64,000 nt of DNA from an uncultured Bacilli bacterium (GCA_934130405.1 CAKOXX010000002.1:28100-92099); one strand, 5' to 3'. Shown: positions 13,715 through 63,716, counted from the first letter of the stretch. The notes: generated by a model not told the origin, from the sequence alone. Numbers and translations: made by a program.

Positions 13715-14635
13715 CTAAAGTTTTATCGCTTTTACTTCTTTTATTGGTATACCAGTCATTCTAGTAACTTCTTCTTGACTCATTCCGTTATTAAGCATCG
13801 CACTAATTATAGAAATTCTTTCTTTTGTGCTTCCTTGCTCAAGTCCACGTTCAAGTCCACGTTCAATTCCAGCTTTAAATGATATACTTCTAATACCATT
13901 TTCAATTCTTTCTCGCTCCATGTCAGCATCGTAAAGTCCAATAGTATTAATATCAAGAGAAGCTTCTTTTATTCGTCCTACTGCTTCCATTAAGTCATTA
14001 TCTCCTTTCCCTAATTTTTCTAAATCACTAATCTTATCAACTTTCAGTATAAGTAACGCTTTTTCAAGTTTACTTAATCTAGCTCCATTATAATATTTCT
14101 TAGCTAGTTTTGGAAGACTGATATGATATTTTTTAACTTTTTCCGTTTCAATTTGTTTACTTTTTTTATCAGTATAAACAAATTCTAATGTTGAATCATT
14201 ACCTTTAAAGTAAGTAAAATTATTTAGATTAATCTGTAAAAACGAATAAAGGGTACTATAATCATTACCAGAGTTTAAACTTTCTCCTTCAATCTTTCCT
14301 AGATAAGCATCATTTCGCATGAATAACCATTCATAATATTTGCCATTCATTTCGATATTAACTAATAACTTATCAATACCAACAATAAAATCAGAGATTT
14401 TTCTTTTTTCCTTAGCATTACTCAGATTAAGTTCATTATTCTTAATCACTAATTTACGTTTAATATCTTCTTTTGATACACCCGTAAATTCACTAATTAG
14501 AAAAGAAAGATAATTAGGACAAGAAGTCATCACTATCTTAAAGACAGAGTCTTGTGTAGCTGGTATAACCTTATGTTCTCTTAAGAGTTTTTCTTTTAAT
14601 TTTAAAACTCTATCATTATCTAAGTTTACAATATT
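13715..14635 (-). CDS. Rpn-family / PD-(D/E)XK nuclease 'putative transposase' (YhgA-like)
   Basis: Acidic-basic C-terminal repeat AGIERGLERGLEQG (12-bp DNA repeat at 13847-13880) followed by a short tail, matching the family's characteristic end. The ORF-track start is 14533 (the ATG at 14531-14533). The frame stays open upstream to 14635, directly after a GGAGGTG SD (possible ATT start, or GTG at 14534-14536). Confidence 0.65.
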   Translation of the reverse strand, partial: NIVNLDNDRVLKLKEKLLREHKVIPATQDSVFKIVMTSCPNYLSFLISEFTGVSKEDIKRKLVIKNNELNLSNAKEKRKISDFIVGIDKLLVNIEMNGKYYEWLFMRNDAYLGKIEGESLNSGNDYSTLYSFLQINLNNFTYFKGNDSTLEFVYTDKKSKQIETEKVKKYHISLPKLAKKYYNGARLSKLEKALLILKVDKISDLEKLGKGDNDLMEAVGRIKEASLDINTIGLYDADMERERIENGIRSISFKAGIERGLERGLEQGSTKERISIISAMLNNGMSQEEVTRMTGIPIKEVKAIKL

Positions 14636-14871: not shown

Positions 14872-15168
14872 CTATTTAGAAATATTAATTATTTCATCTA
14901 AACTATCATCTGTTGCCATTATGTTTTTGTGTTCTTGATTACATTTTTCACACCGATAGAGTATTTTGTAAGTATCCTTAAACTTTTCAATACCAATTGG
15001 TCTTAATAGACCTTTACACGGATTAGCTCTATCACCAGGCATAATATCTATATGAATAGAGTAAAGACAGTAAGGACAATGATCTCTTGTTGTGTATCCT
15101 AAAGGAGAAATTTCTTTTCCACAATGTATACAAGTAAAACCTTCATCTCTTTTAACAAACTGTTTCAT
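14872..15168 (-). CDS. RNHCP-domain protein (zinc-ribbon; motif variant TRDHCPYC)
   Basis: CIHCGK ... RDHCPYC ... CEKCNQ Cys pattern. The ORF track uses TTG 15204; ATG 15168 (MKQFV) is preferred because a TGtTATACT extended -10 lies inside the longer ORF. Confidence 0.55.
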   Translation of the reverse strand: MKQFVKRDEGFTCIHCGKEISPLGYTTRDHCPYCLYSIHIDIMPGDRANPCKGLLRPIGIEKFKDTYKILYRCEKCNQEHKNIMATDDSLDEIINISK

Positions 15169-15247
15169 AAAATCACCATTTAAAGTATAACAATAATTTG
15201 TCAAAAATTCTATTGTTTGTTATGATAAAAATGAAAGAGGTAAGATT

Positions 15248-61343: not shown

Positions 61344-61795
61344 TGAAAAAGGATAAAGCTAGTTTATTTGTAAAAAAATGTTTAAAATTATTTCATATAA
61401 AAGTAAATGCTAAACAAGAAAAGTTACTTATTCAAATATTTAAATTTGGGATAGTTGGTGGTATTGCTTTTGTAATAGATTATGTTTCTTTGATTGTTTG
61501 TAAAGAAGTTTTTCATCTTAACACGTTATTAGCTGCTGCTATTGCGTTTACTATTTCGGTTATTTATAATTACATTGCTAGTGTAAAATGGGTTTTTGAT
61601 GTTAATAAAGAAAAAAATGAAAAGACTAATTTTGTCATCTTTATTGTACTTAGTATCGTTGGTTTAATTATTACAGAGATAATTATGTGGTTTGGTACTG
61701 ATGTAATGAAGATTAGTTACCTAATAATTAAGATAGTAGCAACAGCAATAGTAATGGTATTTAACTTTATTACAAGAAAGATGTTTTTAGAATAG
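61343..61795 (+). CDS. GtrA-family membrane protein (polyprenyl-P-sugar flippase-like)
   Basis: FKFGIVGGIAFVIDYVSL and four TM helices. Confidence 0.7.
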   Translation: MKKDKASLFVKKCLKLFHIKVNAKQEKLLIQIFKFGIVGGIAFVIDYVSLIVCKEVFHLNTLLAAAIAFTISVIYNYIASVKWVFDVNKEKNEKTNFVIFIVLSIVGLIITEIIMWFGTDVMKISYLIIKIVATAIVMVFNFITRKMFLE

Positions 61796-61826
61796 ACCTT
61801 GTTGGGTCTTTTTCTTTTAGTACGAA
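61796..61826 (+). terminator. rho-independent terminator (AGACC..GGTCT + TTTTTCTTTT)
   Basis: hairpin plus T-run at the locus end. Confidence 0.6.
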
Positions 61827-61910
61827 AAAAGTTGAAATTTTAGATAATTAAGTCAAATCTATGGTTAGTTTGCTTTGTTTATGATATAAATTAATTGAAA
61901 AAAATTAAAT

Positions 61911-62020
61911 TTATACCAATTTTGCATTTTCGGTATAAAAAAATGGCCAATTTGTTAAATTCAACTACTAGAAATGCCATTTTCGGCAATTTTTATGTCT
62001 GAATTTGCAAAATTGCCTGT
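61911..62020. repeat. iterated GCATTTTCGG / GAATTTGCAAAATTGCC near-palindromic motifs upstream of the second Rpn-like gene
   Basis: 62001-62017 matches 14779-14795 at 16/17 positions. Confidence 0.65.
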
Positions 62021-62094
62021 TTGCACAATTAATATCTCCTTTGATATGATGACAGCGTCAACGTTGATTTACACCACAACTAAAGGAGGTCTTA

Positions 62095-63018
62095 ATGACA
62101 AAAGAAAAATTTATAATTCCCTTATATGATACAACTATTAAGTATTTGATTAAAAGTGAAAGAACTGGTCCAATAATTTTTAAATTAATCTATTCTTTAA
62201 CAGGAATTGACTTATCGGATTACATAATGATTGATCAAGAGTTAAATACTGGTAATAATAAAACTAAAGATTATCGTTTGGATTTTCTTTTTAAGAAAGG
62301 TAGGACTTTAGTTAATTTAGAAATTAACTATGAACTTAGCGATTGGTCAAGGAGAAAAGGTTACAATTACTTATGGCGTTTAGCAGGAAGTGGTTATGGT
62401 ACTGGTGGTAAGTATACCGAAAAGGAAGTAATTCATATTGCTATTAATAATGCTAGTTTTAAAGAAGATAAAAATGCTACTTTATTAAAATATCGCTTTA
62501 AAGAAGATGATTGTAACACAGTAATAACTGGTGTTAAAAGTTATGAGATTTATTTAAAGAACTATAGTGGTATCAAATATAATGGAAGTAATGAAATTGA
62601 AACTTTACTATCAATGTTAACAGCGACTAGTAAAGAAGAAATGAAAGAAATAGTAGGAAACTACAAGGAAGGAGAAATAATTATGAGTGAATTGGAAAAA
62701 TTAGCTTTAAATGACGAGTTTAATATTTATTATGACCATGAAGCAATCTATAAGAAAGATCTTAATGAAAAATATGATGAAGGAAGAGAGTCTGGACTTG
62801 TTGAAGGACGAAAATCTGGCTTGGCTGAAGGACGAAAATCTGGCTTGGCTGAAGGACGAAAATCTGGCTTGGCTGAAGGACGAAAATCTGGTTTAGCTGA
62901 AGGTTCTAATAAAGAAAAACTAGCAATAGCTAAGTTAATGCTTCAAGGAAAAGAATCATTAGAGAAAATAGTCAAATATACAGGTTTAAGCATTAATCAA
63001 TTGAACACGCTTTTATAA
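62095..63018 (+). CDS. Rpn-family / PD-(D/E)XK nuclease 'putative transposase' (YhgA-like) with octapeptide EGRKSGLA x5
   Basis: AAAGGAGGT SD; overall architecture like 13715-14635; C-terminal charged repeat then a conserved about 35-aa tail. Confidence 0.7.
   Translation: MTKEKFIIPLYDTTIKYLIKSERTGPIIFKLIYSLTGIDLSDYIMIDQELNTGNNKTKDYRLDFLFKKGRTLVNLEINYELSDWSRRKGYNYLWRLAGSGYGTGGKYTEKEVIHIAINNASFKEDKNATLLKYRFKEDDCNTVITGVKSYEIYLKNYSGIKYNGSNEIETLLSMLTATSKEEMKEIVGNYKEGEIIMSELEKLALNDEFNIYYDHEAIYKKDLNEKYDEGRESGLVEGRKSGLAEGRKSGLAEGRKSGLAEGRKSGLAEGSNKEKLAIAKLMLQGKESLEKIVKYTGLSINQLNTLL
62779..62898 (+). repeat. 24-bp coding tandem repeat, 5 units (three identical GAAGGACGAAAATCTGGCTTGGCT)
   Basis: read directly; produces the alternative-frame ORF 62711-62896 as an artefact. 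Confidence 0.85.
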
Positions 63019-63059
63019 TTTAAATAATTATTTGATTTTTTAGAAAAGGAGAGGTAATT

Positions 63060-63314
63060 GTGGATGAATTAAATATAAATGATGAGTTTAATATTTATTA
63101 TGATCATGAAGCAATCTATAAGAAAGATCTTAATGAAAAATATGATGAAGGAAGAGAGTCTGGACTTGCCGAAGGACGAAAATCTGGTTTAGCTGAAGGT
63201 TCTAATAAAGAAAAACTAGCAATAGCTAAGTTAATGCTTCAAGGAAAAGAATCATTAGACAAAATAGTCAAATATACGGGTTTAAGTATAAATCAGTTGA
63301 ATACACTTTTGTAA
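63060..63314 (+). pseudogene. duplicated 3' fragment of the Rpn-like gene (84 codons, only 2 repeat units) with its own SD and GTG start
   Basis: NDEFNIYYDHEAIYKKDLNEKYDEGRESGL and the tail are near-identical to residues about 205-307 of 62095-63018. Confidence 0.6.
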
Positions 63315-63315
63315 A

Positions 63316-63346
63316 AGAGATGAATAATCTCTTTTTGTTTATAAAT
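63316..63346 (+). terminator. rho-independent terminator (AAGAGAT..ATCTCTT + TTTTG)
   Basis: 7-bp stem with T-run. Confidence 0.55.
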
Positions 63347-63422
63347 AAGTATCTTAATTTAACAATGCCTTTCCTTTTCAGTTAAAAAACGTTATAATAA
63401 GAAACGAAAGGAATTGAGGTCA

Positions 63423-63716
63423 ATGGATAAGTTAACAAAAGAAGAAGTAAATCATATTGCTCATCTTGCACGTATTGGTATGAGTGATAGTGATGTAGAA
63501 ATTTTTCAAGTTGAATTAAAAAAACTATTAGATGAAGTATCTAAAATTACAGATATAAAAGGTTATGATGATGAAATAATGTTTACTCCAAGTGAAAATA
63601 AAGCTACAATGCGAGAAGACATTGAAGGAGAAATGTTAAGTGCTAAAGAAGCTTTAGCTAATGCTCCAAAGAAAAATGGAAATTTTGTGGAAGTGCCGGT
63701 GATGATTAATGAATAG
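63423..63716 (+). CDS. gatC: Asp-tRNA(Asn)/Glu-tRNA(Gln) amidotransferase subunit C
   Basis: MDKLTKEEVNHIAHLARIGMSDSDVE is the GatC N-terminus; ATG 63423 (track TTG 63414). Confidence 0.85.
   Translation: MDKLTKEEVNHIAHLARIGMSDSDVEIFQVELKKLLDEVSKITDIKGYDDEIMFTPSENKATMREDIEGEMLSAKEALANAPKKNGNFVEVPVMINE

What the first reader, a model, noticed from the sequence alone, without database searches (positions are those of the whole stretch)
62095..63314. Rpn-like gene with expandable 24-bp coding tandem repeat and a tandemly duplicated, independently translatable 3' fragment
The gene has five tandem 24-bp units (EGRKSGLA), three of them identical in DNA. This points to recent slippage. Immediately downstream, 63060-63314 repeats the last about 250 bp of the gene (about 98% identical) but with only two repeat units, and it carries its own AAAGGAGAGG SD plus GTG start. 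The parent gene also has an internal SD+ATG (62674-62686) at the equivalent position. The C-terminal 'repeat + tail' domain may therefore be produced on its own, possibly as a regulatory or DNA-binding module. The repeat number is evidently unstable.
Basis: seen in the sequence. Interest (0 to 1): 0.55.

Follow-up and report, generated by a model that had tools for sequence, protein, structure and literature searches.

The report
Rpn toxin gene with spare antitoxin
This is a gut-bacterium copy of the already described Rpn system, in which a DNA-cutting toxin gene carries its own antidote gene inside it, followed here by a spare free-standing antidote copy; it is real and varies between strains, but it is ordinary for this family.

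Summary
ORF 62095-63018 (307 aa) carries five 24-bp units, three of them identical in DNA. ORF 63060-63314 (84 aa, GTG start, own SD) copies the parent's 3' part, starting at the parent's internal SD/ATG (62665-62674 / 62683-62685), but has two units. Identity is 95.4%, not about 98%, and 10 of 11 differences are synonymous.

The parent is a divergent PDDEXK_2/Rpn-type nuclease. Its tail matches the RpnA-S crystal structure (7TH0, E 2.8e-7).

Every element matches the Rpn toxin/intragenic-antitoxin system of Zhong et al. 2023: an internally translated RpnS, hypervariable 4-aa repeats, and a free-standing downstream RpnSs, as in E. coli rpnE-ypaA.

Independent gut metagenome assemblies rule out an assembly artefact:
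- The exact 84-aa protein occurs on 43 contigs.
- Near-identical parents run from 275 to 307 aa in 4-aa steps.
- Ss alleles vary as well (16-36 aa tracts).
- Arrays hold 0, 1 or 2 Ss genes.
- Some single-gene alleles are N-domain/Ss-tail fusions.

Expression, toxicity and phage defence were not tested here. Verdict: a new member of a known kind, of low to moderate interest, mainly as a natural dataset on repeat and cassette turnover.

The parts
61880..62094 (+). Conserved upstream region that travels with the gene. It includes a promoter-like site (TGCACA-17-TATGAT with TG, 62022-62050), two AT-rich palindromes (about 61951-61963 and 62000-62013) and the SD AAAGGAGG (62082-62089).
   Evidence: Conserved among paralogs at other genomic sites with 58-65% protein identity. 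Promoter-like site, although such sites were not enriched over shuffles. No Rfam match. Several contigs break exactly 260 nt upstream of the gene.
62095..63018 (+). rpnL-type ORF, 307 aa: an N-terminal PD-(D/E)XK nuclease domain plus the C-terminal repeat/three-helix module.
   Evidence: ORF list. hhalign against PF12784 members: probability 99.9%, E 2.3e-37, 285 columns. TIGR01784 scores 41.7 bits, below its 52.1 cut-off.
62095..62664 (+). N-terminal nuclease domain (aa 1-190), with D63 and E76 invariant and N78 in the third motif position (L-E-I-N).
   Evidence: D63 and E76 are invariant in 27 sequences. AlphaFold2 model with mostly high confidence in this domain. Best Foldseek PDB hits are McrC 6hz4_M (E 3.1e-4), followed by other PD-(D/E)XK nucleases.
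62665..62685 (+). Internal translation initiation site: SD AAGGAAGGAG (62665-62674), an 8-nt spacer, and ATG 62683-62685 (Met197).
   Evidence: Read directly from the sequence. Met197 is invariant. A purine-rich SD is kept in 20+ paralog loci through the rare codons AAG, GAG, GGA and GGG; window codon usage is AAG 0.23, GAG 0.14, GGG 0.04.
62683..63018 (+). Predicted RpnS (intragenic antitoxin), 111 aa, in frame with RpnL.
   Evidence: Inferred from the internal start plus homology. The A4 profile hits RpnA-S crystal structure 7TH0 at E 2.8e-7. The model shows one long helix through the repeats followed by two short helices.
62779..62898 (+). Hypervariable tract: five 24-bp units (each two 4-aa sub-repeats), of which the three middle units are identical in DNA.
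   Evidence: Population variation in 4-aa steps.
63019..63059 (+). 41-nt linker carrying the SD AAAAGGAGAGG (63044-63054). It has no terminator structure.
   Evidence: Fold z-score is -0.43. The same linker precedes every Ss gene in arrays.
63060..63314 (+). rpnSs: a free-standing small homolog of RpnS, 84 aa, GTG start, with two repeat units (63147-63194).
   Evidence: pN/pS against the parent is 0.03 (10 synonymous, 1 non-synonymous change). The exact protein is on 43 contigs. Ss alleles of 84-104 aa exist.
63313..63341 (+). Intrinsic-terminator-like hairpin (9-bp stem) plus a U-run, closing the rpnLS-rpnSs unit.
   Evidence: Minimum free energy -8.6 kcal/mol, z -4.33, 0 of 200 shuffles fold as well. 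The flank is identical (86/86) to the sequence after the single gene's stop in L002.

Best explanation
The locus is an Rpn-type toxin/intragenic-antitoxin module with an extra free-standing antitoxin-like gene (rpnLS + rpnSs), in an uncultured human-gut Bacilli genome.

Proposed mechanism:
- The full-length product (RpnL, 307 aa) is a PD-(D/E)XK DNA endonuclease.
- Ribosomes also start at the internal SD/ATG (Met197) and make RpnS (111 aa).
- RpnS consists of a long helix containing the 4-aa repeats plus a small helical tail.
- RpnS pairs with the identical segment of RpnL and blocks the nuclease.
- The downstream 84-aa gene (RpnSs) is a duplicated copy of that module. It has its own SD and GTG start, is co-transcribed with the parent, and ends at the shared terminator.
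- Repeat number changes by slippage or unequal recombination in 12-bp and 24-bp steps.
- Recombination between the homologous modules adds, removes or fuses Ss copies.

Shown here: the anatomy, the homology, conservation of the internal start, purifying selection on both copies, and population variation. Inferred from the E. coli and C. difficile experiments of Zhong et al. 2023: translation of RpnS and RpnSs, toxicity, neutralisation and phage defence.
For: Family:
- The profile-profile match to PDDEXK_2 proteins spans the whole length (99.9%, E 2.3e-37).
- The N-domain model matches McrC and other PD-(D/E)XK nucleases.
- The tail profile matches RpnA-S 7TH0 at E 2.8e-7. NCBIfam models for the Rpn family and RpnA hit the tail.

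Internal start:
- Met197 is invariant.
- The SD is kept across paralogs with rare codons.
- The duplicated segment begins at the SD/start.
- Free-standing copies in paralogs L014, L018 and L025 begin at the same position.

The small ORF is functional:
- 10 synonymous versus 1 non-synonymous difference from the parent, pN/pS 0.03.
- The exact protein is on 43 contigs.
- It has its own SD, and the terminator lies only after it.

Repeat hypervariability:
- Parent lengths of 275-307 aa in 4-aa steps within one 90% cluster.
- Parents with 3, 4 or 5 units beside an identical Ss.
- Ss tracts of 16-36 aa.

Cassette turnover:
- Arrays hold 0, 1 or 2 Ss genes.
- L002's single gene carries the window's Ss tail (1 mismatch, against 9 to the parent tail) and the same downstream flank.

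Published model: PMC10400941 describes the internally translated RpnS antitoxin, the 4-aa repeat variation, the downstream RpnSs, and its loss by deletion or fusion. E. coli rpnE-ypaA shows the same layout, with the duplication starting at AAAAGGAGAGATTAATG and one extra 4-aa repeat in YpaA.
Against: - There are no expression, toxicity or phage data for this organism.
- The protein falls below the curated cut-off of TIGR01784 (41.7 vs 52.1 bits). It gets no direct Pfam PF12784, PF04754 or PF14261 hit and no meaningful PADLOC hit.
- The third catalytic-motif residue is N78 rather than K or Q, so nuclease activity is not assured. E. coli RpnE is itself annotated as inactive.
- The neighbours are cell-envelope glycosyltransferase genes and gatCAB, not a defence island.
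- In 13 of 14 readable arrays the adjacent Ss has a different repeat length from its parent. Under the published repeat-matching rule, such an Ss would not neutralise that parent, so its role as a simple spare antitoxin is uncertain.
- SD conservation is partly confounded by conservation of the K-E-G amino acids.
Confidence: 0.8

Rival explanations
1. The downstream 84-aa ORF is a non-functional remnant, a pseudogene fragment left by a duplication or recombination event. It is not translated and has no role.
For: RefSeq annotates the E. coli counterpart ypaA as a pseudogene. The ORF is absent from several otherwise syntenic strains (L002, L003, L005). Its repeat length usually does not match its parent's.
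Against: Since the duplication there have been 10 synonymous and 1 non-synonymous change (pN/pS 0.03). The SD and GTG are intact and aligned to the parent's internal start. The identical protein is found on 43 contigs, and many intact alleles of 84-104 aa exist. Zhong et al. detected tagged YpaA/RpnESs protein in E. coli.
Confidence: 0.08
2. The Ss genes serve mainly as silent or semi-silent recombination cassettes. They would be a reservoir from which the parent's specificity tract and tail are replaced by gene conversion or unequal crossover, rather than acting as antitoxins. This is compatible with the Rpn model for the parent gene.
For: L002's single gene is the N-domain joined to the window's Ss-type tail and flank. 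Arrays carry 0-2 Ss genes with independent tract lengths. In arrays the last module always has the D-type tail and the upstream modules the E-type tail plus linker. Parent and neighbouring Ss tracts differ in 13 of 14 arrays. Zhong et al. report loss of rpnSs by fusion of the N-terminal domain with the rpnSs region.
Against: A pure DNA cassette would not need its own SD and start codon, nor strong purifying selection on its protein sequence. The fusions could simply be deletions with no adaptive role. No directionality or mechanism was shown.
Confidence: 0.15
3. The tandem duplication and repeat count are assembly artefacts, that is, collapsed or expanded repeats.
For: Seven of the ten contigs shown that carry the 84-aa gene start inside the parent gene, and others break exactly 260 nt upstream. 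Assemblers therefore do struggle with this locus. A second near-identical locus appears to exist, in a spoIIIAH-side context.
Against: The parent + Ss arrangement was assembled independently in many samples and by different assemblers (Hadza SPAdes NODE contigs, k141 MEGAHIT-style contigs and MERR22 scaffolds). The two copies differ at 11 positions and have distinct flanks, so they are not a collapsed duplicate. The exact 307-aa parent recurs on long contigs of 56-164 kb.
Confidence: 0.03
4. The gene encodes a transposase or invertase of a mobile element, as the older family names suggest, and the duplicated 3' fragment is a by-product of transposition.
For: Some sources name family members 'PD-(D/E)XK nuclease family transposase' or 'predicted transposase/invertase'. 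The family is multi-copy, with 5-7 loci per MAG. A conserved roughly 215-260-nt upstream region travels with the gene.
Against: No terminal inverted repeats or target-site duplications were seen around the unit (one search found only short AT-rich repeats). Zhong et al. and Koonin argue that PD-(D/E)XK proteins are not autonomous transposases and that rpn copies arise by duplication. The duplication boundary coincides with a translational start, not with an element end.
Confidence: 0.03

Closest known systems
E. coli K-12 rpnE-ypaA (RpnE-LS plus RpnE-Ss; Zhong et al. 2023, PMC10400941)
   Same: An Rpn gene with an internal SD/ATG, immediately followed on the same strand by a small gene that copies the segment from the internal SD/start to the end. 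In E. coli the copy starts at AAAAGGAGAGATTAATG. Parent-S and Ss differ in the number of 4-aa repeats: YpaA has one extra EGKL. The tail is homologous to RpnA-S.
   Different: Here the N-domain is of the PDDEXK_2/TIGR01784 type rather than the YhgA type (PF04754). The repeats are organised as 8-aa (24-bp) units, and the count difference is large (5 versus 2 units). The Ss uses GTG after a 41-nt linker, against a 12-nt gap in E. coli. The population carries arrays of up to two Ss genes. The host is an uncultured gut Bacilli.
Clostridioides difficile Rpn (Gram-positive example in Zhong et al. 2023)
   Same: It comes from the Firmicutes lineage. An internally translated RpnS was shown experimentally after cloning in E. 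coli, and 4-aa repeat variation was reported among strains.
   Different: No direct sequence comparison was made here. Whether the C. difficile gene has a downstream Ss copy was not checked.
PDDEXK_2 (PF12784) / TIGR01784 'Rpn family recombination-promoting nuclease/putative transposase'
   Same: Full-length profile homology, including the D...E-x-(Q/N) core, the (E/A)G-x-x-G repeat region and the TGLS-x-EE tail.
   Different: The window protein itself scores below the curated cut-offs, so it represents a divergent subfamily restricted, as far as seen here, to uncultured gut Bacilli MAGs. The second paralog in the window (13715-14533, minus strand) does pass PF12784.
EcoR124I / EcoR124II HsdS TAEL repeats (cited in Zhong et al. 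2023)
   Same: Specificity of a coiled or helical spacer is tuned by the copy number of a 4-aa (12-bp) tandem repeat that changes by unequal recombination.
   Different: There the repeat sets the DNA target spacing of a restriction enzyme. Here it is thought to set partner specificity between toxin and antitoxin. The proteins are not homologous.

Membership tests
Rpn toxin / intragenic antitoxin (RpnLS; Zhong et al. 2023) | N-terminal PD-(D/E)XK nuclease domain homologous to Rpn/YhgA-like or PDDEXK_2 proteins | tested here: met
   hhalign of close homologs against PF12784-bearing proteins: probability 99.9%, E 2.3e-37, 285 columns. D63 and E76 are invariant. The AlphaFold2 model's best PDB matches are McrC and other PD-(D/E)XK nucleases.
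Rpn toxin / intragenic antitoxin (RpnLS; Zhong et al. 2023) | Passes the curated family models (TIGR01784, PF12784 or PF04754) on its own | tested here: not met
   TIGR01784 scores 41.7 bits against a cut-off of 52.1. There is no PF12784 or PF04754 hit at E <= 1. Membership therefore rests on profile-profile and structural evidence; this is a divergent subfamily.
Rpn toxin / intragenic antitoxin (RpnLS; Zhong et al. 2023) | In-frame internal translation start with an SD ahead of the C-terminal domain | tested here: met
   At the sequence level only. AAGGAAGGAG, 8 nt, then ATG (Met197). Met197 is invariant in 19 homologs. The SD is preserved in paralogs with rare codons. Ss copies start at this position.
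Rpn toxin / intragenic antitoxin (RpnLS; Zhong et al. 2023) | RpnS protein is actually translated from the internal start | not testable with these tools
   This needs ribosome profiling with initiation inhibitors, or tagging and immunoblotting as in PMC10400941.
Rpn toxin / intragenic antitoxin (RpnLS; Zhong et al. 2023) | C-terminal module homologous to RpnS (a long helix plus a small helical bundle) | tested here: met
   The A4 profile hits RpnA-S 7TH0 at E 2.8e-7. A single-sequence search gave only E 0.29. The model shows helices 207-240 and 251-284 plus two short helices, with low confidence in the repeat region.
Rpn toxin / intragenic antitoxin (RpnLS; Zhong et al. 2023) | Four-amino-acid repeats that begin shortly after the internal Met and vary in number among strains | tested here: met
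   The tract begins 34 residues after Met197, somewhat further than the 8-20 residues quoted in the paper. Lengths are 275, 283, 287, 291, 295, 299, 303 and 307 aa within one 90% cluster, while the rest of the protein is at least 92% identical. Parents have 3, 4 or 5 units beside an identical Ss.
Rpn toxin / intragenic antitoxin (RpnLS; Zhong et al. 2023) | RpnL is toxic or nucleolytic, is neutralised by its cognate RpnS, and protects against phage | not testable with these tools
There was no meaningful PADLOC hit, and the neighbours are not defence genes.
RpnSs (free-standing downstream small homolog, e.g. YpaA) | A separate small gene directly downstream of an rpn gene that is most similar to its own parent's S region | tested here: met
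   ORF 63060-63314 is 95.4% identical to the parent's 3' part and has its own SD and GTG. E. coli rpnE-ypaA has the same architecture.
DUF4351 (PF14261), the annotation of some stand-alone RpnS genes | Match to the Pfam PF14261 model | tested here: not met
   PF14261 was not among the hits at E <= 1 for either the 84-aa or the 307-aa protein. Precomputed hits on homologs list PF27070 instead. That model is not in the local Pfam copy, so its name was not verified.

The most novel reading that the evidence does not exclude
The parent gene and its array of 0-2 Ss genes, together with a second near-identical locus, may form a cassette system. Recombination among the modules would continually re-assort the repeat length and tail of the toxin's specificity helix. 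The usually mismatched Ss proteins would then not be spare antitoxins. They would either be donors for this switching or cross-regulators of the other locus. That would make Rpn loci programmed variation systems, comparable to shufflons or antigenic-variation cassettes.
Probability: 0.15. Interest if true: 0.6.

Novelty: new member of a known kind. Interest (0 to 1): 0.27.

Why it matters
The finding shows that a reader working from raw sequence can independently recover the gene-within-gene Rpn architecture.

It also extends that architecture to a divergent subfamily that current curated models miss (below the TIGR01784 cut-off, no Pfam or PADLOC hit), in uncultured human-gut Bacilli.

The metagenome alleles form a natural series: tracts of 12-40 aa, 0-2 Ss copies, and fusion alleles. 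Zhong et al. left open how the repeats expand and contract and how Ss copies arise and are lost, and this series could be used to study that question.

It also shows that assemblers commonly break at this locus and that such genes are left unnamed in annotation.

Tried and rejected
- Direct Pfam, NCBIfam and PADLOC scans did not place the N-domain. A profile-profile comparison and a structure model were needed.
- A single-sequence search of the PDB gave only E 0.29 to 7TH0. The profile search gave E 2.8e-7.
- The sigma-70 promoter scan found no more sites than shuffles did (7 against 9.5 expected), so no internal promoter for RpnS can be claimed.
- Rfam found nothing in 61700-63450.
- I briefly held that the 84-aa Ss is invariant while only the parent varies. 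The search with the 84-aa protein refuted this: Ss alleles with tracts of 16-36 aa exist.
- The assembly-artefact and transposase readings were rejected; see the rival explanations.
- I did not run the second structure job, the representative-protein search or the metagenome-contig scan, because the question was already settled.

Full report
**Observation.** The region reads as described.
- ORF 62095-63018 (+, 307 aa) is preceded by the SD AAAGGAGG.
- Tandem Repeats Finder reports a 24-bp array at 62778-62903 with 5.2 copies and score 194.
- Unit by unit, the array is one EGRESGLV unit, three DNA-identical EGRKSGLA units (62803, 62827, 62851), and a fourth EGRKSGLA unit with two synonymous changes.
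- After a 41-nt linker, ORF 63060-63314 (84 aa, GTG) follows.
- A pairwise alignment shows that homology starts at the parent's internal SD/start and ends at the stop codon: AAGGAGAAATAATTATG in the parent against AAGGAGAGGTAATTGTG in the copy.
- The copy has a 72-nt (three-unit) gap in the repeat tract and a 9-nt gap in the head.
- The internal ATG is at 62683-62685 (codon 197). Its SD, AAGGAAGGAG, is at 62665-62674.

**What the gene is.**
- Direct scans were weak. Pfam gave no nuclease family, and TIGR01784 (Rpn family) scored 41.7 bits, below its 52.1 cut-off. PADLOC gave nothing meaningful.
- A homology search found 81-93% identical proteins, a 57-65% identical group, and distant full-length matches (23-29% identity) that carry PF12784 (PDDEXK_2).
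- A profile of the close homologs aligns with a profile of the PF12784 proteins over 285 columns, with probability 99.9% and E 2.3e-37. The match covers the nuclease core, the repeat region and the tail.
- D63 and E76 are invariant in 27 sequences. The third motif position is N78 (L-E-I-N).
- An AlphaFold2 model (mean pLDDT 79) has a confident alpha/beta N-domain. Its best PDB matches are McrC (E 3.1e-4), followed at much weaker scores by cap-snatching endonucleases, R.BspD6I, FokI and Hjc. All of these are PD-(D/E)XK folds.
- The C-terminal part is modelled as a long helix running through the repeats (low confidence there), followed by two short helices.
- The family profile hits the crystal structure of RpnA-S (7TH0) at E 2.8e-7.
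- The host is an uncultured human-gut Bacilli lineage, and each MAG carries 5-7 loci of this family.

**The published framework.** Zhong et al. 2023 (PMC10400941) made the following points:
- rpn genes encode a toxic nuclease, RpnL.
- From an internal start they also encode a small protein, RpnS, that binds and blocks RpnL.
- Adding a single repeat to only one partner abolishes neutralisation.
- Some loci carry a second, free-standing copy (RpnSs, for example YpaA downstream of rpnE).
- That copy originates from its own parent and can be lost by deletion or by fusion with the N-terminal domain.

Koonin's commentary gives the same picture. I fetched E. coli K-12 rpnE-ypaA for direct comparison. 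There the duplicated segment also begins at the internal SD/start (AAAAGGAGAGATTAATG), and YpaA differs from RpnE-S by one extra 4-aa repeat. The window locus therefore matches the archetype point by point.

**Evidence that the internal start is real (inferred, not measured).**
- Met197 is invariant in 19 homologs down to 47% identity.
- Across more than 20 paralog loci, a purine-rich SD sits 7-10 nt before this ATG. It is encoded with AAG, GAG, GGA and GGG codons, which are rare in this genome (AAG 0.23, GAG 0.14, GGG 0.04 in long ORFs of the window).
- Free-standing copies in divergent paralogs (L014, L018, L025) start at exactly this Met and retain the SD-bearing upstream codons as untranslated sequence.

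**Evidence that the small ORF is a functional gene.**
- The parent and the copy differ by 10 synonymous and 1 non-synonymous change (pS 0.21, pN 0.005, ratio 0.03).
- The linker has no significant structure (z -0.43). A 9-bp hairpin with a U-run follows the small ORF (-8.6 kcal/mol, z -4.3), so the two genes probably share one transcript.
- The exact 84-aa protein is recorded on 43 contigs of up to 164 kb, from several projects and assemblers. This also disposes of the assembly-artefact reading.

**Population variation.**
- The window protein belongs to a 90%-identity cluster of 277 members. Sampled lengths are 275, 283, 287, 291, 295, 299, 303 and 307 aa. All the length differences lie in the repeat tract, while the rest of the protein is at least 92% identical.
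- Next to an identical Ss gene, the parent has 3, 4 or 5 units. These alleles differ only in the number of DNA-identical middle units.
- Ss genes can be recognised by their MDELNINDEF head. They also vary, with tracts of 16, 20, 24, 28, 32 and 36 aa. This corrected my interim idea that the Ss copy is fixed.
- Arrays contain 0, 1 or 2 Ss genes (L002, L003 and L005 have none; L046 has parent + 84 aa + 100 aa; L040 has 100 aa + 84 aa).
- The last module of an array always has the 'D' tail followed by the terminator. Upstream modules have the 'E' tail followed by the linker.
- L002's single gene has the window's Ss tail (1 mismatch, against 9 to the window's parent tail) and an identical downstream flank (86/86). 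It is therefore a fusion or deletion allele of the kind Zhong et al. describe.
- In 13 of 14 readable arrays, the parent and its neighbouring Ss have different tract lengths. These arrays are not all independent strains.

**Mechanism and its limits.**
- The best-supported reading is an RpnL nuclease held in check by an internally translated RpnS, plus a co-transcribed RpnSs.
- Repeat number would change by slippage or unequal exchange, and modules would be gained, lost or fused by recombination between them.
- Translation, toxicity, neutralisation and defence are extrapolated from E. coli and C. difficile.
- Three points are open: whether the N78 variant nuclease is active, why the Ss is usually mismatched to its neighbour, and what the trigger is.
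- The locus is not in a recognisable defence island. Glycosyltransferase and GtrA genes lie upstream and gatCAB lies downstream.

**Verdict.** The finding is real and was correctly interpreted. It is an instance of a system published in 2023, in a divergent subfamily from uncultured gut bacteria. I rate it a new member of a known kind, with low to moderate interest. Its main value is as a rich natural allele series for studying repeat and cassette dynamics.

Noticed in passing
window 13715-14622 (- strand): A second Rpn-like paralog passes PF12784 (34 bits against a 27.4 cut-off). It has 4-aa repeats (GIER GLER GLEQ), the TG-x-P/S tail, and its own internal SD AAAGGAGA plus ATG. Its reading frame and N-terminal homology extend upstream of the first canonical start (GTG 14533). 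The only candidate start with a good SD (GGAGGTGA, 9 nt upstream) is an ATT codon near 14622. This means either a non-canonical start or loss of the start codon.
   Followed up: partly
window 61880-62094; L008, L010, L012, L013, L024 upstream regions: About 215-260 nt upstream of the rpn gene is conserved among paralogs at different genomic sites. Two palindromes there keep their arms while their centres vary: AATTT-GTT-AAATT, and AATTT-GC-AAAATT just before the -35-like TTGCAC. They might be operator sites for a dimeric helix-turn-helix-like RpnS, but this is speculation. There is no Rfam match.
   Followed up: partly
L037-L043, L046, L047, L049: Contigs that carry the locus very often start inside the parent gene or exactly 260 nt upstream of it. 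Short-read assemblers break at this repeated unit, which implies at least two near-identical copies per genome or strain mixtures within samples.
   Followed up: partly
L003, L004, L045-L049 versus window, L002, L005, L034-L041: Near-identical rpn units occur in two downstream contexts (gatCAB, or SpoIIIAH-GerE-Germane) and two upstream contexts (GtrA, or a RecD2-like helicase). L003 joins a GtrA upstream side to a SpoIIIAH downstream side. This is either a real rearrangement through the repeated unit or a chimeric assembly.
   Followed up: no
L001 6913-7461: In one strain, an ORF beginning MKALKGYVFRLYPN sits directly after the rpn gene where gatC is expected. From memory, this resembles the N-terminus of TnpB/IS605-family proteins. 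It suggests an IS insertion at this junction.
   Followed up: no
L009, L013, L015, L030 (and proteins P0022-P0031): In several paralogs the N-terminal domain and the C-terminal module are in different frames or separated by a stop. The result is an N-domain-only protein of 170-215 aa and a separate S-type ORF. These are either decaying copies or naturally split toxin/antitoxin pairs.
   Followed up: no
window 14872-15204 (- strand): An RNHCP-domain zinc-ribbon protein (PF12647, E 1.6e-27) lies next to the second Rpn paralog. Its function is unknown.
   Followed up: no
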